Shown here: positions 52,726 through 63,966 of the stretch, piece after piece | Layout: each line of letters begins with the position of its first letter | How positions within the stretch are numbered: the stretch's first letter is position 1 | Source of the DNA: Longimicrobiales bacterium | GTDB lineage: Bacteria > Gemmatimonadota > Gemmatimonadetes > Longimicrobiales > Gaopeijiaceae | Length of the DNA: 64,000 nt | NCBI GenBank assembly: GCA_965202805.1 | Contig: OZ241869.1 | Span: forward strand, 2,592,001-2,656,000 | Direction of reading: 5' to 3' | Position numbers and translations under genes: made by a program | Notes under the pieces: model-generated | Database searches by the model: none | What the model was told of the DNA's origin: nothing | What the model saw: the letters and a program-made list of their open reading frames with translations, nothing else

Positions 52726-52787
52726 GCGACCGCGGAGCGGAAGAGCGGCTCCCCGGCACGCCGGGTCCGACGCGCGCGGCACCAGCG

Positions 52788-52871
52788 GGCCGGGGGCCGG
52801 GACGTGACGCTGGCCGGCCGCGAGCCTGGACGTGACGTCAGCCGGCCGGGGGCCGGGATGTGGCGCTAGCC
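52788..52871. repeat. Three 28-nt tandem repeats
   Basis: GGCCGGGGGCCGGGACGTGACGCTGGCC / GGCCGCGAGCCTGGACGTGACGTCAGCC / GGCCGGGGGCCGGGATGTGGCGCTAGCC. Confidence 0.75.
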
Positions 52872-53675
52872 GATGCGGTCGATGTAGTCGTCCATCGCGG
52901 CAAGCACCTTCACGACCTCCGACGTGCCTTCCGCCGCGGTGATGTCGGCCGCAAAGTCGAACAGCATAGTGCGAACCGCTGCGCGGTCGATTTCGGCGGG
53001 GGCCGCCTCGGCAGCAGGAGCCGGCGCAGCAGCGGCGGGCTCGGGTTCCGGTGCCGGCGCCGGCTCGGGCTCGGGTGCCGCCGCTACGGGCTCGGGCTCG
53101 GGTTCCGGCGCCGCGGGCGCGCGCCGGGGACGCCGACGAGGCTTGATGCCGGCCGCCGCATCCGCCGCCCGACGAGCGGCCCGCTTCACCTGAAGCGGAT
53201 AGCGCGCGTGGAACTGGCGCTTGGTCAACTCGGCGATTCCGGCGTTCAGTTTGACCGCGCCCTCGAGCAATTCGTCCACCGAAACGTCGGGGTTGTCCTT
53301 CAACTGTCCTTCAACCCAGCTCATGACCTCGGCGTCCGTCGTCGTCTTGCTCTTTGCCGGGGCCGGGGCCGGGGCCGGAGCTTCCTCGGGTGCGGGAGCA
53401 GCTTCCGCGACAGCTTCCGCAGCGGGCTCGGGAGCGGCTTCGGGAGCTTCGGCGGCGGCTTCCGCAGCAGCTTCGGCGGCGGCCGCTGCCGCAGCCCTGC
53501 TGGCGCGCCGCTTTACCTGAAGCGGATATCGCGCATGAAACTGGCGCTTGTTCAGTTCGGCCACATCGGGCTGAAGGATCTTCGCGCCCTCGAAGAGCTC
53601 ATCCACCGTAACTTCCGGATTGTCCTGCAGTTGCTTCTCAACCCAACCCATAACTTCAGCGTCGGTCGCGACCAT
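52866..53675 (-). CDS. Hypothetical protein with two ~55-aa repeated helical domains and Ala/Pro/Glu linkers
   Basis: TDAEVMxWVE..L.DNP.V.VDEL.EGA...AEL.KRQFHARYPLQVKR occurs twice; strong RBS AGGGGAG. Confidence 0.85.
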   Translation of the reverse strand: MVATDAEVMGWVEKQLQDNPEVTVDELFEGAKILQPDVAELNKRQFHARYPLQVKRRASRAAAAAAAEAAAEAAAEAPEAAPEPAAEAVAEAAPAPEEAPAPAPAPAKSKTTTDAEVMSWVEGQLKDNPDVSVDELLEGAVKLNAGIAELTKRQFHARYPLQVKRAARRAADAAAGIKPRRRPRRAPAAPEPEPEPVAAAPEPEPAPAPEPEPAAAAPAPAAEAAPAEIDRAAVRTMLFDFAADITAAEGTSEVVKVLAAMDDYIDRIG

Positions 53676-55467: not shown

Positions 55468-56052
55468 TCAAGGGTCCGGCCAGTCGTCGAGGAGGACCGC
55501 GGACACGCGGCCGGGCCCGTGGACCCCGGTCACCATGACCTGGCCGATGTCGGCCGACTTGCTGGGACCGGAGTGCAGCGCCAGCGCGGAACCGCCGTCG
55601 CCGCGGCACGCGGCCAGCGCCTCGCCGAGGGTGGCCGCGACCGTCGTAGCGTCCACCAGCACGACGTGGGCCGGCGGGAGCAACTGGGTGCGCCGCCCGT
55701 CCCGGCTGCTCAGCACCAGCGACCCGGACTGGGCGGCCGCCGCGCGCGCCACCGACACGCCGAGCGCGGCGTGCCGGGGCGGGGCCTCGGGAACCGGCAA
55801 CGCCAGGCTCGCGGGAACGCCCGCCCCGTGGCTGACGCTCTCGAACCGGGCGGCGAACCCATGCAGCCACCCGCGCGCCGCGTCCGCGTCGGCGAAGCGG
55901 TGCACCTCGCCCCCTGCCGCGCGAAAGCTGTCCGCGAAGTGCTCCACCGCCCCCGGGGCATCCGGGGCCGCCGTATCCAGTGCGCCGGGATGAGGGGCCC
56001 GGGGTCGGCCCCGGAGCGCCTCACGCACCCGCCGAAGAACCTGCTCCCTCAT
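55468..56052 (-). CDS. lutC: Lactate utilization protein C (LUD domain)
   Basis: MREQVLRRV, LLPPAHV, SGPSKSADI, GVHGP. Confidence 0.88.
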   Translation of the reverse strand: MREQVLRRVREALRGRPRAPHPGALDTAAPDAPGAVEHFADSFRAAGGEVHRFADADAARGWLHGFAARFESVSHGAGVPASLALPVPEAPPRHAALGVSVARAAAAQSGSLVLSSRDGRRTQLLPPAHVVLVDATTVAATLGEALAACRGDGGSALALHSGPSKSADIGQVMVTGVHGPGRVSAVLLDDWPDP

Positions 56053-57428
56053 TCGATGCCCTCCCGCCAGAGCTCGCGGAAGGAGGTCCGGGACGGCTCC
56101 GGATCCGCCCGCACCTCGCGCCAGCCACCCACCACCGGCAGGGGAACGCGGCGCACCGGCTCGGGGAGCGCGTGCAGCACGCCTCCGGCGGCCCGGTACA
56201 CGCCGGGCCGGGTCGCGACCGCCGTCCACGCCTTCAGGAGCGCGGCCTTGGCGCGCGAATCCATCCCCGCCTCCACCGCCCGCCGGCGCCAGCTCAGCAG
56301 CAGCTCGGGGATCGGGATGCGCACCGGGCACGCCTCCTCGCAGGCGCCGCACAGGCTGGAAGCGAAGGGAAGCGGCATGGCGGCGTGCAGCCCCGCCAGC
56401 CCGGGGTTCAGCACCGACCCGATGGGGCCCGAGTAGACGGCCCCGTAGGCGTGCCCGCCCGTCTGGCGGTAGACGGGGCAGGCGTTTAGGCAGGCGCCGC
56501 AGCGCACGCAGCGGAGCGCCTCCCAAGCCTCGGGGTCGGCGAGTACGTCGGAGCGGCCGTTGTCGACCAGCACGACGTGCACCTCCTCCGGGCCGTCGGG
56601 GTCCTCCGCCGTCCTGGGACCGTGGATCATGGAGACGTAGTTGCCCACCGGCTGCCCGGTCGCCGCCCGTGCCGTGAGCTGCAGGAACACGGCGAGGTCG
56701 CTCCAGCGCGGCAGCAGTTTTTCGATGCCCACCAGCGCCACGTGCACGGGTGGCGCCGAGGTGGTGAGCCGGATGTTGCCCTCGTTCTCGATGAGCGCCA
56801 CGGTGCCGGTCTCCGCCACCAGGAAGTTGCCGCCGGTGATGCCCAGGTCGGCCGCGAGAAAAGCCTCGCGCAGGATCACGCGCGAGACCGCCGCCAGTTC
56901 GTCCGGCGTGGCATCCGGCTCCGTCCCGTGGGTTTCGTGGTACAGCCGGCGGATCTCGTCCAGGCTCAGGTGGATGGCCGGGCCGACGATATGGCTCGGC
57001 GGCTGTTCGAGCAGCTGCAGGATGTACTCCCCCAGATCCGTCTCGAGCACGTCGACGCCGCGCTTCTCCAGCAGCTCGTTCACCTCGAGCTCCTCGGAGA
57101 GCATGCTCTTGCCCTTGACGGCGCGCCGCGCCCCCCGGCGCTTGATGATGCCGGAGAGGATCCGGTGGACATCCTCCTGCGACGCGGCCCAGTGAACCCG
57201 GGCGCCGTTGGCCTCCAGGCGCGTCTCGGCCTCCTCGAGATATCGGTCCAGATGGGTGAGCAGGTGCGTCTTCACCCCTTCCGCCCAGCGCCGCCATTCC
57301 TCCGCGGCCACCCCCGCGTACGCGGCCCGGCGGTGTGCGTCGAAGGTCAGGGTCGCCCCGGTCACGGACGCGCGCACATCCCCGCTCTCGCGGGCGCGCT
57401 TGGGGTATTCGCGGCTACGAATCTCCAC
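56049..57428 (-). CDS. lutB: Lactate utilization protein B (LUD domain plus 4Fe-4S)
   Basis: KGKSM, ETDLGEY, PSHIVGPA, ENEGN, CVRCGACLNACP, LCGACEEACP; GTG start with GGGAGG RBS. Confidence 0.93.
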   Translation of the reverse strand: MEIRSREYPKRARESGDVRASVTGATLTFDAHRRAAYAGVAAEEWRRWAEGVKTHLLTHLDRYLEEAETRLEANGARVHWAASQEDVHRILSGIIKRRGARRAVKGKSMLSEELEVNELLEKRGVDVLETDLGEYILQLLEQPPSHIVGPAIHLSLDEIRRLYHETHGTEPDATPDELAAVSRVILREAFLAADLGITGGNFLVAETGTVALIENEGNIRLTTSAPPVHVALVGIEKLLPRWSDLAVFLQLTARAATGQPVGNYVSMIHGPRTAEDPDGPEEVHVVLVDNGRSDVLADPEAWEALRCVRCGACLNACPVYRQTGGHAYGAVYSGPIGSVLNPGLAGLHAAMPLPFASSLCGACEEACPVRIPIPELLLSWRRRAVEAGMDSRAKAALLKAWTAVATRPGVYRAAGGVLHALPEPVRRVPLPVVGGWREVRADPEPSRTSFRELWREGIE

Positions 57429-58182
57429 CGGCCGCCTCCCAGAGAACGTCGGCAAGATGGCGCACGGCGAGCTCCTGCCCGCGCGTTCGCATGCGGCCCG
57501 AGAGCTGGAGCAGGCAGCCGCAGTCGGCGGAGGTCAGGAAATCGACTTCACCCGCATCGGCGAGTGTGTCCAGCTTGCGATCGGCCATCCCCGCGGAAAC
57601 CTGGGGGAAGCTCACCGAGAACAGGCCTCCGAACCCGCAGCATTCCTCGGCCGCCGCCCACGGCACCACTTCCGCCCCGGCGTTGGCCATCAGCGCGAGC
57701 GGCTCCTCGCGGATGCCCAGCTCGCGCAGGGCGTGGCACCCGTGATGGTACGCGACCCGGCGTCCCTCGAGGCCCTGCCCCAGGTCCGTGACCTCGAGCA
57801 CCCGCACCAGGAACTCCGCCAGCTCGAAGGTGCGCCCGGCGAGGTCGGCCACCTGCCCGGACAGGCCGTCGTCCTCATGGAAGAGATGGGCGTAGAAGCG
57901 CCGGAGCATGGAGGCGCAGCTCCCCGAGGGAAGCACCACGTACTCGCTCTCGCGGAAGACCTCGAGGGTGTGCCTGGCCATGCGGCACGCCTCGGCGTCC
58001 CGGCCCGCGTTGAAGGCGGGCTGCCCGCAGCAGGTCTGCGCCTCGGGGAAGTCCACCTCGACGCCCAGCTTCCTCAGGAGCCGCACGGCCGAGGCGGCGG
58101 CATCGGCGTAGAAGTGGTCGCCCAGGCAGGTGACGAAGAGGGACGCGCGCACGGGTCTCGGCAATGGCCCCGGCTCAGGCAT
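57415..58182 (-). CDS. lutA: Lactate utilization protein A (CCG Fe-S domains)
   Basis: FVTC, QTCCGQP, PSGSC, HHGCH, CCGFGG, DCGCL. Confidence 0.93.
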   Translation of the reverse strand: MPEPGPLPRPVRASLFVTCLGDHFYADAAASAVRLLRKLGVEVDFPEAQTCCGQPAFNAGRDAEACRMARHTLEVFRESEYVVLPSGSCASMLRRFYAHLFHEDDGLSGQVADLAGRTFELAEFLVRVLEVTDLGQGLEGRRVAYHHGCHALRELGIREEPLALMANAGAEVVPWAAAEECCGFGGLFSVSFPQVSAGMADRKLDTLADAGEVDFLTSADCGCLLQLSGRMRTRGQELAVRHLADVLWEAAGGDS

Positions 58183-59188
58183 CGAACCCGGAGCTGCGCA
58201 CCAGGTCCAGTCCTTTGGTGACGATGAGGCCCTCGGCGCCGTCGACGCGTTCCAGCAGCTCGATGCCGTGGACGGGGCCCAGCACCATCGCTGCGGTGGC
58301 GAGGGCGTCGGCGTCCATGGCGGACGGGGCCACCACCGTGGCGGCGCTGGCGTGGCCGGGCGAGGCGCCCGTGCGCGGGTCGATGATGTGGTGATGGCGG
58401 AGGTCGGTGGTGTGGGCCCGCAGGTAGTCGCCCGAGGTGGCCACCCCCTGGTGGCGCACCTCGATCGTCCCCAGCAGCGTCCCCGGCTCGCGCGGGTGCT
58501 CCACTCCCACCGGCCATCCCGTCCCCGCCACCTCCCCCTCCCCGGCCGAGATGTCGCCACCCCCGTCGGCCAGCACGCCCGCGGCCCCCGCGCCCGTGAC
58601 CCACTCGACCACCCGGTCGAGGATGTACCCTTTGGCGATGCCGTCGAGCGAGACCGTCATGCCCGGGCGCGCGAACGCGATGCCCGCCGCATCCAGCCGG
58701 ACGTGCCGATACCCGACCCGCGACATGGCGTGCTCCACGGCGGCTTCCGCGGGCGGTGCGCCGGTTTCGGCGAAGCTGCTCCGGTAGAGCTCCATCAGCG
58801 GGGCCACGGTGGGGTCGAAGGCGCCGCCGGTCAGCTCGGCGAAGTGCAGGGCGCGGCGCACGACCGCCACCAGTTCGGGCGGCGGATCATGCAGAACCCC
58901 GTCCCGGTTGAGGCGGGACACCGGCGTGTCGGGCCGGTAGCCGCTGAAGACCGCTTCCAGCCGATCGATCTCGTCGAAAGCGGCGGCGGCCAGCTCACGC
59001 GCCCGCGCGGCCTCGGGGTGCACCACCCTGACCTGCACCAGCGTGCCCATGCGGGTTCGGGTGTCGCTCGCGCCGTGCAGCCCGGCCCGGCGCAGGACCG
59101 CCGCCGTGAGTCCGCCGCCCATCGCCAGCAGCAGGCCCGCCGCCCCGCCGATCCGCAGCGCCTTGCGGCGGGAGATGCCCTCACGCAC
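58175..59188 (-). CDS. apbE: FAD:protein FMN transferase with Tat-like signal
   Basis: SRRKAL, MGT, GAFDPTV, GIAKGY, GGDI, ATSGDY, HIIDPRTG, ADALAT. Confidence 0.94.
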   Translation of the reverse strand: MREGISRRKALRIGGAAGLLLAMGGGLTAAVLRRAGLHGASDTRTRMGTLVQVRVVHPEAARARELAAAAFDEIDRLEAVFSGYRPDTPVSRLNRDGVLHDPPPELVAVVRRALHFAELTGGAFDPTVAPLMELYRSSFAETGAPPAEAAVEHAMSRVGYRHVRLDAAGIAFARPGMTVSLDGIAKGYILDRVVEWVTGAGAAGVLADGGGDISAGEGEVAGTGWPVGVEHPREPGTLLGTIEVRHQGVATSGDYLRAHTTDLRHHHIIDPRTGASPGHASAATVVAPSAMDADALATAAMVLGPVHGIELLERVDGAEGLIVTKGLDLVRSSGFDA

Positions 59189-61829
59189 CGGTCTCGCCCC
59201 GCGCGCTGGTCTCGAGCGCCGCGCCGGACGCCACTTTCAGCTGCACCAGCCGCTGGCGCACGTCGCGTATGTCGTGGCGGCAGACGCCGGCCCGCTCCAT
59301 CAGTTTCGCCTCGCAGATGTTGCAGCGCACGCACTCGCGGAAGTCGATGCGCGGTCCCTCGATGGCCCCCGTGGGACAGGCCTGCTCGCACACCTTGCAG
59401 TGGTCGCAGTGCTCCACCCGGCGGATGCGGAAGGGCGACACCGTGGAGGCAACCGCGAGCGCCGCGCCCAGCGGGCAGGCGTAGCGGCAGTAGAAGCGGG
59501 GCACGATCGCCGAGGCCACCAGCACCGCCCCCGCGATACCCCAGAGCACGATGGACGAACTCAGGAAGAAGACGGTTCCGAAGGGCTCGAAGAAGGGAAA
59601 GATGCTCGCCCGGCTGCCCGCCAGCGCCGGGAGCAGGACAGCCGCCAGAACCAGGTACTTGACGAGGTACAGGCGCTCGTGCAGGGCGCGCGGCAGCTCT
59701 CGCTTGAACTTCCGGGGAACCACCTTCTCCAGGAGGTCCTGCAGGACTCCGAAGGGGCACAGGAAGCCGCAGAACACGCGCCCCACCAGCAGCGTCGTGA
59801 CCACGGTGAACACCACGAACAGGAGCAGCGGGATGTCCTCCAGAAACACCCCCGGCCCCACGGAGATGGCCGCGGTGATGTGCGACACCGAGAGGAAGCC
59901 GCCGTCGAACCATCCCAGGTAGAGGAAGGTCGCGACCAGGGCCACCCAGCGCAGCCGGTCGCGCTTCAGGAAGAACGCCACCGTGACCAGCGCCAGCAGC
60001 CCCAGCATCCACGCGACTTCCGCGGGGGAGGTGCGCGCCAGCGTGCGCTCGAGGACGGTCTGGTCCTCGGCGAGGGAGAAATCCAGGTCGGGTTGGGGGG
60101 ACGCGGCCGCAGGGTCATCAGGGGATGGGGGGCCGCCCACAGGCGCTGCTTCGGTGGGAACGGCCTCGCCCCTCGTCCCGGGGTCACCTGCGGCTGCGGC
60201 GTCATCCGGCATCCGCGGATCGCCCCCCTGAGCAGCCTCAGCGGCATCGCCCCTCGTCCCCGGATCGCCCCCCTGAGCAGCCTCAGCGGCATCCTCCTCC
60301 GACACCGTCGCCGCACTATCCTCGGGCGCGTCTCGCGCGACCTCCCTGGCCACAGGAATTTCGTTCGGGCTCGAAACGGCCGACGACGGATCGACTGCGG
60401 CCGATGACGGCTCGCCCGCGGCAGTTTCCGGCTCATCTGCGGCAATATCCGACGGCGGTGCGACAGTATCCGACGTCTGTGTGGCAATATCCGATGTCTG
60501 TACGACAATAACCGGCGTCTGTACGACAATATCCGCCATCCGCGCGGCATTCTCCGGAGCGGCCGCGGCATCCGCCGGCTCAGCCGCCGGTTCAGCGGGA
60601 TCGGGGTCCTCCCCGGCAGGCGCATCTTCCGCCGGAGGCGCGTCTTCCGCGACGATCCGCTCCGCGAGCTGCGGCGGCGGATACTCCGTCGAATAGAGAT
60701 CCATCCCGGGACGGAGATCGAAATAGATTTCGAAGCCCCGCTCGACATCGAGGGCGCCCGGCACCGCCATCACCCCGACGTTGCGGAACTGTCCCGACAC
60801 CATCCCGCTGCGCGGCTCCCCCAGCATGACGACGTCCGGGTTGTCCATGTCGAGGGTGTCGGCGCCCTGCACCAGCGAGAGCGTGCGCGGATAGAAGAGG
60901 AGGGCCAGCGCGCCATCGACTCCGACGAGCATCAGATGGTCTTCCTGCGTCCGCTCCCCGAACTGTTCCGCCACCTCGCCGAATCTGCTTCGGCCGACCA
61001 GCATCTCCCCGACGGAATCGCTGCGGATGTGCGCGAAGGAGAGCACGATGCGGGTGACGTCGTTCTCGAGCACATGGATCTGCGGCACCAGCTCGCCCGC
61101 GACCATGTCCGACCAGGACAGCTCGTCCAGCTCATCGATGCCGATGGTCAGGAGCGAGCCGCCGGATTCGGCGGACGGCCGGGTGGCCAGGTAGTTGGCG
61201 TACACCCGGCGCGCGGAGGCGCGGATGCCGCGCGACATGGCCGAGACCGAGATCGTGGCCCGCGAAACCACCCGGACATCGCGCTTGGCGCGGAAGGGGT
61301 CGGAGATGGATTTGCCCGTGAACTGGGCCTCGTAACCCGGGGTGCGCAGGAAATCGCCGCGGGTGCGGATGTAGGACTCGACGTAGTGGGTGACCCGCAC
61401 ACCGGTGAGGGTCCCTTCCCGGTCCATCCCCACCAGCACCTCGATGGGGCCGTTGTAGCCGAGTTCCTCCGGAGGCACGTCGGACGTCAGGAAGGCGTAG
61501 CCGACCACGGCTTCCTCGTCCGGGACCTCGGCGGCGTAGCCCACGATCACCCGCGGGTCGCCGTCGCGCACCTCGAAGGAGATGGCGCCCGGCAATACCT
61601 CCTCCACGAGACTCTGCGGGAACGGGAAGCCGTCCAGGACTTCCTGGCCGAGGGCGGGGGCGGTCGCAAACGCGTTTGCGACCACCGTGATCGCGAGGAC
61701 GCATGCCGCCGCCGTCACCCACGCGGCCGCGCCCATGACCCAGGCAGGCGCGCCGGGGGACGCCGTGGCCCGTGCGACGGCCGCGACCCGCGCCACCCTC
61801 CTTCCCTCCCGCGCGTCAGGCATCCACAC
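59181..61829 (-). CDS. NosR/NirI-like membrane protein: FMN-binding domain, TM domain and polyferredoxin
   Basis: GYNGPIEVLVG..SRATIS FMN_bind domain; CGFLCPFG and CRYACPLG; CDHCKVCEQACP and CVRCNICE. Confidence 0.85.
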   Translation of the reverse strand: MWMPDAREGRRVARVAAVARATASPGAPAWVMGAAAWVTAAACVLAITVVANAFATAPALGQEVLDGFPFPQSLVEEVLPGAISFEVRDGDPRVIVGYAAEVPDEEAVVGYAFLTSDVPPEELGYNGPIEVLVGMDREGTLTGVRVTHYVESYIRTRGDFLRTPGYEAQFTGKSISDPFRAKRDVRVVSRATISVSAMSRGIRASARRVYANYLATRPSAESGGSLLTIGIDELDELSWSDMVAGELVPQIHVLENDVTRIVLSFAHIRSDSVGEMLVGRSRFGEVAEQFGERTQEDHLMLVGVDGALALLFYPRTLSLVQGADTLDMDNPDVVMLGEPRSGMVSGQFRNVGVMAVPGALDVERGFEIYFDLRPGMDLYSTEYPPPQLAERIVAEDAPPAEDAPAGEDPDPAEPAAEPADAAAAPENAARMADIVVQTPVIVVQTSDIATQTSDTVAPPSDIAADEPETAAGEPSSAAVDPSSAVSSPNEIPVAREVARDAPEDSAATVSEEDAAEAAQGGDPGTRGDAAEAAQGGDPRMPDDAAAAGDPGTRGEAVPTEAAPVGGPPSPDDPAAASPQPDLDFSLAEDQTVLERTLARTSPAEVAWMLGLLALVTVAFFLKRDRLRWVALVATFLYLGWFDGGFLSVSHITAAISVGPGVFLEDIPLLLFVVFTVVTTLLVGRVFCGFLCPFGVLQDLLEKVVPRKFKRELPRALHERLYLVKYLVLAAVLLPALAGSRASIFPFFEPFGTVFFLSSSIVLWGIAGAVLVASAIVPRFYCRYACPLGAALAVASTVSPFRIRRVEHCDHCKVCEQACPTGAIEGPRIDFRECVRCNICEAKLMERAGVCRHDIRDVRQRLVQLKVASGAALETSARGETGA
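60168..60540 (-). repeat. Tandem repeats in the low-complexity linker of the NosR-like protein
   Basis: 33-nt exact repeat at 60216 and 60261 (DAAEAAQGGDP, period 45) plus 21-nt repeats (IVVQT/DIATQT). Confidence 0.8.
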
Positions 61830-63966
61830 GCGCGAGCCGGAGGGCGTTGGCGGTCACCAGCAGCGAGACGCCCACATCACCCACCAGGACCGCCGTGATC
61901 AGCGAGACCATCCCGAGCGGCACGCCGACCACCAGGACGAGCTTCACCAGCAGGGCGGTGGTGATGTTCTGGCGGATGACCGCCCGAGACTTGCGCGACA
62001 GCCGGAACAGGTAGGGCAGGCGGGTGAGGTCGTCGCCCATCAGCGCCACGTCCGCGCTCTCGATGGCGGCGTCGCTCCCGGCCGCTCCCATGGCGATGCC
62101 CACCGAGGCGGCCGCGAGCGAGGGCGCGTCGTTCACGCCGTCGCCCACCATCGCGACCCGGCCGTGCTCCCGCTCGAGCGCCTTGAGCGCCTCCACTTTC
62201 TCGTGCGGGAGCAGCCTGGCCATCACCTCGTCCACCCCGGTCTCCCCCGCGACCCGGCGGCCGGTCGCGGCGTCGTCGCCGGTCAGCATCACGACCGGCC
62301 GGATGCCCATGCCGTGCAGCCCCCCCACCGCCACCCGCGCCTGCTTGCGGGCCCGGTCCTCCAGGGAGATCCACCCCAGCGGCCCGTCCTCGTCCGCCAC
62401 GACCACCACCGTGCGGCCATCGCCGGCCATGCCCGCGGGTGGTTCGCCGAGCCCCAGGACGGCCGGCTTGCCGACGAAGTGGCGCACGCCGTCCAGGCGG
62501 GCCGTGACGCCCTCGCCCCGGCGGGTGGCGAAGTCGCGCACGGCGTAGTGCGCGTGGATCTCGCGCCTGACCGCCTCCTCGTGGATCGCGCGCGCGACCG
62601 GGTGCTCCGATCGGGCCTCCACGGCGGACGCGCGCGCCAGCACCGTGGCCGGTGGCGCCCCCCGGGTCGAGCGCACCTCGCGCACCTCCAGGTGCCCGAC
62701 CGTGAGCGTGCCGGTCTTGTCCATCGCCATGGCCCGCACGCCGCTCATCGCCTCCAGGTAGACCCCGCCCTTGATCAGCACCCCGCGGCGCGCGGCGGCC
62801 GTGATGCCGCTCACCACCGCCACCGGGGTGGAGATCACCAGCGCGCACGGGCAGGCGATCACCAGCAGGGTGAGCCCCCGCACCAGCCAGGTGACGAAAT
62901 CCGCGCCCGCGAGGGTCGGCACCGCGACCACCAGCACGGCCGCGACGGTGATCGCCGGCGTGTACCGGCGCGCGAAGCGGGCCACCAACCGTTCCGTCTT
63001 CGCCTTCTCCGCCCCGGCCCGCTCCACCAGCTCCACGATGCGCGCGAGCGAGCTCGAGTCGGCGGGCTTCTCCGTGCGGATGTGCATGAAGCCGTCGCGG
63101 GTGATGGTGCCGGCGAAGACCGGGTCGCCGGGGTCCTTGTCCACCGGGAGCGACTCCCCGGTGAGGGGCGACTCGTCCACCGCCGAGCCCCCCTCCAGCA
63201 CGCTGCCGTCGACCGGAATCCGCTCGCCGGGGCGCACCACCACAACATCCCCGACCGCGACCGCGGAGGCCCGCACCGTTTCCTCCACCCCGCCGCGCAG
63301 CACCACGGCCGTCTTGGGGGCGAGGTCCATCAGCGACTCCATCGACGCCCGCGCGCGGTCGACGGCGTAGCTCTCCAGCAGCTCGGCGATCGAGAACAGG
63401 AAGGCGATCGCCGCGGCCTCCAGGTACTCCCCGATCGCGATCGCTCCCAGGATCGCCACGGTCATCAGGAAGTTCATGTCCAGCGAGAGAGCGCGCGCGG
63501 CACGCACCCCGTCCGGCATGAACCTCCATCCGGCGACCAGGGCCGAGGCGACGAACAGGAGCGACGGAATCCGCACCTCGTTCAGCGGCAGCGTGAACAG
63601 CAGCGTTCCCGCCCCTGCCAACTGGAGCGCGAGCCCGACCGCGAACAGCGCCGCCGACGCGTACGTGATGCGCGCGTCCCGCGTCGCCCAGGTCGCGGTG
63701 GCGCGCTCCCGCCGGGCGCCGGTATCCGGCTCGGCCAGGTGCCCGAGTCGCCCGATCGCCCGCCGCACCTCGTCGGCCGCCACCCGGCCGGGGTCGACCT
63801 CAACGGTGACCGTGCGGCCCACCAGGCTGGCCCCCACCCCCATCACCCCGTCGACCTTGCGCAGTCCGTCCTCGATGCGGGTCACACAGTGCGAGCAGTC
63901 CATGTCCCGCACCCGGAAGCGGACCGCGGTCGCGGCGCCCCCGGCCGGCGCGGTACCCCCGGCCAT
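61816..63966 (-). CDS. zntA: Heavy-metal P1B-2 type ATPase (Zn/Cd); frame open to the window edge
   Basis: HMA MDCSHC, TGES, CPC, DKTGT, SEHP, GDGVNDAP, Lys and DxG in the last TM segments. Confidence 0.9.
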   Translation of the reverse strand: MAGGTAPAGGAATAVRFRVRDMDCSHCVTRIEDGLRKVDGVMGVGASLVGRTVTVEVDPGRVAADEVRRAIGRLGHLAEPDTGARRERATATWATRDARITYASAALFAVGLALQLAGAGTLLFTLPLNEVRIPSLLFVASALVAGWRFMPDGVRAARALSLDMNFLMTVAILGAIAIGEYLEAAAIAFLFSIAELLESYAVDRARASMESLMDLAPKTAVVLRGGVEETVRASAVAVGDVVVVRPGERIPVDGSVLEGGSAVDESPLTGESLPVDKDPGDPVFAGTITRDGFMHIRTEKPADSSSLARIVELVERAGAEKAKTERLVARFARRYTPAITVAAVLVVAVPTLAGADFVTWLVRGLTLLVIACPCALVISTPVAVVSGITAAARRGVLIKGGVYLEAMSGVRAMAMDKTGTLTVGHLEVREVRSTRGAPPATVLARASAVEARSEHPVARAIHEEAVRREIHAHYAVRDFATRRGEGVTARLDGVRHFVGKPAVLGLGEPPAGMAGDGRTVVVVADEDGPLGWISLEDRARKQARVAVGGLHGMGIRPVVMLTGDDAATGRRVAGETGVDEVMARLLPHEKVEALKALEREHGRVAMVGDGVNDAPSLAAASVGIAMGAAGSDAAIESADVALMGDDLTRLPYLFRLSRKSRAVIRQNITTALLVKLVLVVGVPLGMVSLITAVLVGDVGVSLLVTANALRLARVDA

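What the first reader, a model, noticed from the sequence alone, without database searches (positions are those of the whole stretch)
55468..63966. Six-gene coupled operon linking a flavinylated NosR-like protein and ApbE to LutABC, with no nosZ or nirS
Seen: every junction overlaps (ATPase/NosR-like 14 nt, NosR-like/ApbE 8 nt, ApbE/LutA 8 nt, LutA/LutB 14 nt, LutB/LutC 4 nt), which argues for translational coupling. Known: NosR/NirI-type proteins carry an ApbE-attached FMN outside the membrane and Fe-S clusters inside, and usually serve N2O or nitrite reductases. LutABC oxidises L-lactate. Inference: this may be a module that moves lactate-derived electrons across the membrane to an extracytoplasmic acceptor, perhaps for metal reduction linked to the co-transcribed P1B-ATPase. 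I do not know this combination as a described system.
Basis: partly seen in the sequence, partly recalled or inferred. Interest (0 to 1): 0.78.

Follow-up and report, generated by a model that had tools for sequence, protein, structure and literature searches.

The report
Partnerless NosR–ApbE pair beside lactate genes
In one genus of uncultured Gemmatimonadota, a predicted flavin-carrying membrane electron conduit and its flavin-attaching enzyme sit next to ordinary lactate-oxidation and metal-pump genes, but other relatives keep only the conduit pair together, so the six genes are likely a local neighbourhood, not one machine, and the conduit's partner is still unidentified.

Summary
The six genes are real, and the genome has no detectable nosZ, nirS or nirK. 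The six-gene unit is not a conserved system.

Within the genus the whole ~20 kb block is syntenic, unrelated genes included. Outside it, the NosR-like gene keeps apbE as next gene (40 of 64 loci), with lut directly behind in 0 of 56 and the ATPase in 0 of 68. 16 of 50 genomes with the NosR-like gene show no lutB. The apbE/lutA overlap, the key junction, is absent in 13 of 14 relatives. The ATPase is a Zn/Cd/Pb-type exporter, and no Mtr-type multiheme conduit was found.

The conserved core is a NosR/NosX-like pair of the known 'NapH-like' flavinylation class (Méheust 2021), with a degenerate flavinylation motif and a long linker. It is likely a periplasm–quinone conduit. Its best correlate is the expanded set of periplasmic PQQ-type dehydrogenases (49 of 50 genomes, against 10 of 18 family genomes lacking it), so electrons likely flow inward. 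That rests on co-occurrence only.

A weak residual signal for Lut remains: lutABC lies within 22 kb in three other lineages, against 0.6 expected.

The parts
61816..63966 (-). P1B-type ATPase, Zn/Cd/Pb class (HMA with CxxC, CPC, DKTGT); start may lie at 64053, beyond the window; genus-specific neighbour
   Evidence: TIGR01512 512 bits over cut-off 313.5, TIGR01511 (Cu) under cut-off; motifs; 0 of 68 non-genus loci carry it
59181..61829 (-). NosR/NirI-like (NapH-like) membrane Fe-S flavoprotein; likelier start 61796. Hydrophobic leader, RnfG-like FMN domain, second beta-sandwich domain, 192-aa acidic Pro/Ala linker, membrane domain with two CX3CP and a C-terminal Fe-S region
   Evidence: PF04205 and PF12801; NF046105 157 bits against cut-off 1000; model of the near-identical P0001, pLDDT 73.6; RnfG/NqrC matches; motifs
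61254..61274 (-). Predicted FMN attachment motif R-V-V-S-R-A-T192, degenerate against D-x-x-[ST]-G-A-[ST]
   Evidence: Terminal S/T in 74 of 74 aligned family proteins, exact canonical motif in 16 of 74; aligns with the RnfG motif; motif definition from PMC12052999
58175..59188 (-). ApbE flavin transferase with a twin-arginine-like leader (as recalled for NosX); the only copy in the genome
   Evidence: PF02424 240 bits; 13 PDB ApbE/Ftp matches; RR leader visible in most listed homologues; single copy
57415..58182 (-). LutA (two CCG domains); likelier start 58152, 22 nt after the apbE stop
   Evidence: PF02754 x2; start comparison in 14 genus loci
56049..57428 (-). LutB/LldF Fe-S protein
   Evidence: TIGR00273 452 bits over cut-off 444.8; PF02589, PF13183, PF11870
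55468..56052 (-). LutC (LUD domain)
   Evidence: PF02589 66.6 bits
53823..55445 (-). Ppx/GppA exopolyphosphatase; probably in the same transcript, functionally unrelated
   Evidence: PF02541, PF21447; nearest start to the lutC stop lies at -4 to +14 nt in the relatives parsed

Best explanation
The locus is a genus-specific run of two likely independent redox modules plus unrelated genes, and its conserved core is the NosR-like/ApbE pair, predicted to move electrons between the periplasm and the membrane quinone pool. Shown: gene content, domain layout, conservation of the pair, and absence of nos/nir. Inferred steps: (1) Tat-exported ApbE attaches FMN to Thr192. (2) The FMN domain, on a long flexible tether, meets soluble or lipid-anchored periplasmic redox proteins encoded elsewhere. 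(3) Electrons pass through the CX3CP/Fe-S membrane domain to quinone. (4) The likeliest donors are the many PQQ-type dehydrogenases that lack a membrane anchor, so flow would be inward, towards aerobic respiration. LutABC would oxidise L-lactate in the cytoplasm and meet the conduit only through the shared quinone pool.
For: Pair conserved: apbE is the next gene in 40 of 64 non-genus loci with room; lut follows directly in 0 of 56; ATPase in 0 of 68. The whole block from the PQQ-type gene to glutamate dehydrogenase is conserved in the genus, so that synteny is unspecific. lutB shows no association: 34 of 50 against 12 of 18. PF01011 dehydrogenases occur in 49 of 50 genomes with the gene, 10 of 18 family genomes without it, and 80 of 121 phylum genomes. 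All 11 genomes with two or more copies have 11 or more PQQ-type genes, against 11 of 39 single-copy genomes. The two carriers without PF01011 (G107, G216; one lineage, 70% identical) have a GSDH-family gene directly divergent from the NosR-like gene. Precedent: NapH-like plus ExaA in 172 genomes (PMC8238504). The host has 12 PQQ-like genes and a cytochrome c oxidase-like cluster.
Against: Co-occurrence only, among related genomes, and the 50 carriers come from the top 80 of about 600 matched stretches. Multi-copy genomes also all have lutB (11 of 11). PQQ-rich genomes without the conduit exist (G041; 78 of 118 in the phylum sample). Proximity of the neighbouring PQQ subfamily is at chance level (2 lineages against 1.35 expected), and its 67-77% orthologues are not next to the NosR-like gene. 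The host has no pqqE over cut-off (control G041 passes), so these enzymes need outside PQQ or another cofactor. Characterised NosR works outward. lut lies near the gene slightly more often than chance. The flavinylation motif is degenerate and untested.
Confidence: 0.45

Rival explanations
1. First reader's module: LutABC passes lactate electrons directly to the cytoplasmic Fe-S domain of the NosR-like protein, which exports them to a periplasmic or external acceptor.
For: Adjacent and co-directional in 17 of 18 congeners (G004 is cut by its contig end, and G015 rests on coordinates only). lutABC also lies 3-14 kb upstream and divergent in a clade that is not sister on the NosR tree (L112, L117, L128, L132, G026), 9 kb from a second copy in G067, and 21 kb away in G082. 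That is 3 lineages within 22 kb against 0.59 expected (P about 0.02), and 2 within 15 kb against 0.39 (P about 0.06). LutABC has no predicted membrane helix.
Against: 16 of 50 carriers show no lutB; no association in presence; never adjacent outside the genus; apbE/lutA overlap not conserved; the thresholds were chosen after seeing the data, and shared ancestry could explain the proximity; no outer-membrane multiheme conduit found.
Confidence: 0.12
2. Outward conduit independent of Lut: quinol reduces the FMN domain, which reduces soluble shuttles, Fe(III) chelates or an unidentified periplasmic reductase; lactate is one of many donors to the pool.
For: NosR and PceC work or are proposed to work outward (PMC5928378). 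A stand-alone apbE-nosR module is proposed, without knockouts, for Fe(III) reduction in Clostridium (PMC13134045). No partner enzyme is conserved next to the pair, which fits a small-molecule acceptor.
Against: The Clostridium protein has several FMN domains and a monoderm envelope. No iron-uptake or reductase gene recurs among the neighbour clusters annotated. It does not explain the co-occurrence with PQQ-type genes. The host's unclassified DMSO-family molybdoenzyme has its own Fe-S partner.
Confidence: 0.25
3. Maintenance or sensing role: the protein keeps periplasmic cofactors or metal sites reduced, or signals redox state as first proposed for NosR/NirI, without carrying bulk flux.
For: NosR is described as activating NosZ as well as delivering electrons. 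Often a single copy for many possible clients; degenerate motif; long tether.
Against: All Fe-S and CX3CP cysteines are at least 99% conserved, as in an electron-transfer chain. No regulator recurs next to the pair.
Confidence: 0.15
4. An ordinary nosR/nirI serving a nos or nir cluster elsewhere.
For: Homology to NosR over both ends, and remote homology of domain 2 to NosR/NirI-type proteins.
Against: nosZ in 0 of 19 genus genomes and 2 of 50 other carriers; no nirS or nirK over cut-off in the host.
Confidence: 0.03

Closest known systems
'NapH-like' flavinylation systems (Méheust et al. 2021, PMC8238504; passages and section 17 read; supplement 1 too large to read)
   Same: PF12801 membrane Fe-S protein with an N-terminal extracytosolic FMN-binding domain beside apbE. 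2465 clusters reported, most with unknown reaction.
   Different: No nosZ, pceA, nirS or exaA in the cluster. The nearby PQQ-type gene is below the cut-offs of TIGR03074/03075/04528 and is not conserved nearby. Degenerate motif, long linker. The words lactate and Gemmatimonad are not in the main text.
NosR/NirI with NosX/ApbE (PMC12052999 and PMC5928378, passages read)
   Same: FMN domain, second periplasmic domain, membrane module with two CX3CP, C-terminal Fe-S motifs; ApbE with a twin-arginine-like leader.
   Different: 157 bits against a 1000-bit NosR cut-off; no nos or nir genes; a linker of 18-202 aa in the family.
NapH-like + ExaA alcohol-oxidase clusters (PMC8238504 Fig. 5A text)
   Same: Proposed inward flow from a periplasmic quinoprotein.
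   Different: There the dehydrogenase is in the cluster; here the candidates are dispersed paralogues of unknown substrate, and the host lacks pqqE.
Clostridium apbE-nosR module (PMC13134045, passages read)
   Same: Two-gene module without nosZ.
   Different: Several FMN domains, Gram-positive host, proposed Fe(III) reduction.
LutABC/LldEFG L-lactate dehydrogenase (PMC3924224 abstract start; PMC13411273 passage)
   Same: Three genes in the usual order with the usual domains.
   Different: No permease in the run (one lies about 580 kb away); substrate not tested.

Membership tests
NapH-like flavinylation system | PF12801 membrane Fe-S protein | tested here: met
   68.8 bits, two stretches; hydrophobic segments
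NapH-like flavinylation system | Extracytosolic FMN-binding domain | tested here: met
   PF04205 over cut-off; RnfG fold; location inferred from the leader and the model
NapH-like flavinylation system | apbE in the cluster | tested here: met
   Next gene, 8-nt overlap
ApbE substrate | D-x-x-[ST]-G-A-[ST] motif | tested here: inconclusive
   R-V-V-S-R-A-T: acceptor Thr present, Asp and Gly replaced. The review reports D-to-A as minor and G-to-A as about 50% loss; G-to-R is not covered in the passages read.
ApbE substrate | Covalent FMN | not testable with these tools
   Needs co-expression
NosR (nos cluster) | Equivalog score | tested here: not met
   157 against 1000 bits
NosR (nos cluster) | nosZ in the cluster or genome | tested here: not met
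   (control: 8 relatives hit)
NirI (nirS cluster) | nirS in the genome | tested here: not met
   Only 3 sub-cut-off fragments; the control hit only Methanosarcina, so it is a weak control
NapH-like + ExaA | ExaA-type dehydrogenase in the cluster | tested here: not met
   TIGR03075 170 against 480 bits; adjacency not conserved
LutABC | CCG, LUD+Fe-S and LUD genes in order | tested here: met
LutABC | L-lactate oxidation | not testable with these tools
   Needs an assay
P1B-2 Zn/Cd/Pb ATPase | TIGR01512 score; CPC, TM7 Lys, TM8 D-x-G | tested here: met
   the motif definition is recalled
Mtr-type metal reduction | Decaheme cytochromes | tested here: not met
   At most 5 CxxCH among 2928 of my gene calls; the gene caller may miss genes

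The most novel reading that the evidence does not exclude
The NosR-like protein is the membrane partner of LutABC, wiring cytoplasmic lactate oxidation straight to a tethered periplasmic flavin. The repeated closeness of lut and the NosR-like gene in separate lineages would then be selection for that link, and this genus has fused them into one transcript.
Probability: 0.12. Interest if true: 0.7.

Novelty: new member of a known kind. Interest (0 to 1): 0.3.

Why it matters
The six-gene system should not be pursued as a unit. What remains is a defined subfamily of partnerless NosR/ApbE pairs in marine-type Gemmatimonadota and some Gammaproteobacteria. If it is a shared entry point for dozens of periplasmic quinoprotein-like enzymes, it would explain how these anchorless enzymes reach respiration, and it would assign a function to part of the unexplained NapH-like class. 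It also warns that a 'nosR' annotation in these genomes does not imply N2O reduction (nosZ in 2 of 50).

Tried and rejected

PQQ proximity as evidence: rejected, it is at chance level.

Metal-binding role of domain 2: best VIA Z 6.5 (DUF4426; rmsd 4.0, 118 aligned), P19/FtrA-like Z 5.3-5.7, no Foldseek hit, no conserved His/Met/Cys. Rejected as uninformative. The Atlas gave only hits under 0.9.

ATPase-NosR fusion in G009 (1578-aa open frame): separate genes.

Co-transcription: sponge metatranscriptome contigs of related strains cover all 30 bins, but none of the 7 listed contigs bridges a junction in the six-gene run, and contigs cannot show transcripts. Promoter/terminator scans were at shuffle level. 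No Rfam match.

pqqC search had no working control; pqqE did.

The phylum sample held only 3 carriers of 121, too few for a profile. The metagenome contig scan was not obtained.

Papers: in the search for LutABC, NosR and ApbE (at least 2 terms), none of 19 listed papers contains 'lutABC'; none of 12 listed holds both NosR and a lactate term. One search was uninformative. Supplement 1 of PMC8238504 could not be read and may list this cluster type.

Earlier scan notes: nothing.
Full report
Observation. The six minus-strand ORFs are present and match a heavy-metal P-type ATPase, an FMN_bind+Fer4_5 protein, ApbE, LutA, LutB and LutC. The overlaps of 14, 8, 8, 14 and 4 nt are correct for the starts chosen. 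The junctions inside each module hold up in relatives: nosR-like/apbE in 5 of 6 parsed and lutA/lutB in 11 parsed (my patterns failed on several loci). The junction between the modules does not: 13 of 14 parsed genus loci have no overlapping lutA start, and one has a 194-nt gap. For ATPase/nosR-like, an 8-nt ATG overlap and an SD-led start about 20 nt downstream are both possible; the 14-nt start is not seen in the 3 relatives parsed. An upstream aminotransferase and the downstream ppx are packed as closely, so the likely transcript is a mixed eight-gene run.

Host. Records of close homologues are titled Longimicrobiales or Gemmatimonadota. The genome is one contig, 4.02 Mb, 98% complete. It has one FMN_bind gene, one ApbE and 12 PQQ-like dehydrogenase genes, a lactate permease about 580 kb away, a cytochrome c oxidase-like cluster and an unclassified DMSO-family molybdoenzyme with its own Fe-S partner. 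It has no nosZ, no nirS or nirK over cut-off, no pqqE over cut-off and no protein with more than five CxxCH motifs among my gene calls.

Synteny. All 18 congeners have the NosR-like gene and lutB, linked in 17. But the entire block (PQQ-type gene, aminotransferase, ATPase, nosR-like, apbE, lutABC, ppx, a repeat protein, glutamate dehydrogenase) is conserved wherever contigs reach, so this says little about function. The genome scan returned the best 80 loci of 598 confirmed, from 40 of 64 parts of the collection; 68 lie outside the genus. There apbE is the next gene in 40 of 64 loci with room, lut follows directly in 0 of 56, and the ATPase occurs in 0 of 68. The 47 recurring neighbour clusters that I annotated are mostly peptidases, hydrolases, transporters and unknowns, with no recurring terminal reductase. 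In 50 carrier genomes (completeness not given), lutB was found in 34 and nosZ in 2. Among 18 family genomes without the gene, 12 have lutB.

Evidence that keeps the Lut link alive. lutABC lies 3-14 kb upstream, divergent, in one further clade of five genomes that is not sister to this genus on the NosR tree (69 rows, quick method; eight genus loci and proteins under 500 aa left out). It lies 9 kb from a second copy in G067 and 21 kb away in G082. Counted as lineages this is 3 within 22 kb against 0.59 expected, and 2 within 15 kb against 0.39. The thresholds are post hoc and old linkage could explain it.

Anatomy. The model of the near-identical P0001 shows a hydrophobic leader, an RnfG/NqrC-like FMN domain, a second beta domain, a disordered linker and a membrane/Fe-S domain. 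The linker is 192 aa here, median 96 in 74 family proteins. Twelve cysteines are at least 99% conserved, as are three histidines. The predicted FMN acceptor is Thr192 in R-V-V-S-R-A-T. All 74 proteins keep S/T there; 16 have the canonical motif. Domain 2 has no Pfam match and no clear fold match, but its profile weakly finds fuller NosR/NirI-type proteins, so the protein is a diverged full-length NosR homologue. ApbE keeps its recognisable motifs and a twin-arginine-like leader. The ATPase passes the cadmium-family model and not the copper model; a link to metal reduction is therefore unlikely (own knowledge of P1B-2 substrates).

Mechanism. By family knowledge the pair is a periplasm-quinone conduit matured by its neighbour. 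The partner is not in the cluster. The best correlate found is the PQQ-type dehydrogenase family: 49 of 50 carriers, against 10 of 18 family non-carriers and 80 of 121 phylum genomes. The two carriers without PF01011 have a GSDH-family gene directly divergent from the NosR-like gene (one lineage). The dehydrogenase 4 kb upstream matches the membrane-bound family model only from position 148 on, so it lacks the anchor and would need a separate carrier (inference). Against this: kin are not independent, many PQQ-rich genomes lack the conduit, gene proximity is at chance level, multi-copy genomes also all have lutB, and the cofactor supply is unclear. I put the inward-hub reading at 0.45, outward flow through quinol at 0.25, a maintenance role at 0.15, direct Lut coupling at 0.12 and a hidden nos/nir role at 0.03.

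Comparison. The pair meets the working definition of the NapH-like flavinylation class of Méheust et al. 2021 (PMC8238504; passages and section 17 read; supplement 1 not readable). That class includes 172 genomes with an ExaA partner and a majority with no known reaction. It is not NosR or NirI proper. A stand-alone apbE-nosR module has been proposed for Fe(III) reduction in Clostridium (PMC13134045, passages). I found no paper joining LutABC with NosR or ApbE in two library searches; most subscription papers are not in that library. Tallies for family f3 and the phylum sample include G056 and G164, which are flagged unpublished.

Verdict. Real genes, likely co-transcribed, but a genus-level neighbourhood of known parts. 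The open question is the partner of a widespread orphan NosR/ApbE pair. Interest 0.3.

Noticed in passing
window 52866-53675 (-): 269-aa protein with two copies of a ~60-aa domain separated by Ala/Pro/Glu linkers, conserved in the genus (apparently three copies in G007). No Pfam match and no usable Atlas hit.
   Followed up: partly
G000 genome-wide; L146:12149-18124, L150, L167:11262-13526: 12 DUF1592-type plus DUF1552 gene pairs in the host. Second copies of the NosR-like gene in G067, G068 and G087 sit directly beside such clusters. These are further candidate partners.
   Followed up: partly
L155:11063-13084, L156:11180-13249, L154: lutA lies directly beside a PQQ-type dehydrogenase in G102 and G068, and beside GSDH plus PQQ-type genes in G066; these genomes have 13-15 copies of that subfamily.
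   Followed up: partly
L090:7823-9883, L133:10204-12318: ApbE fused to a ~350-aa exported protein that is a separate downstream gene in L092, L093, L126 and L143; possibly read-through of a lost stop.
   Followed up: no
L184:1778-7243 (G000 ~3.96 Mb): Unclassified DMSO-reductase-family molybdoenzyme with a 521-aa TtrB/NrfC-like partner, below every NCBIfam cut-off.
   Followed up: partly
G000:C1:83064-84332: Formate-dehydrogenase-like gene with an in-frame TGA, likely selenocysteine, also in G002 and G007.
   Followed up: no
L033:3357-4604 and matching places in L040, L043, L044, L037: An AAA-family gene is present between the PQQ-type gene and the aminotransferase in some congeners and absent in the host: an insertion site upstream of the run.
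   Followed up: no
window 52784-52872: 28-nt tandem repeat, 3.2 copies, between the convergent glutamate dehydrogenase and repeat-protein genes.
   Followed up: no
L125, L129, L134, L139, L141: The NosR-like subfamily also occurs in marine Gammaproteobacteria, nested among Gemmatimonadota sequences and without adjacent apbE.
   Followed up: partly
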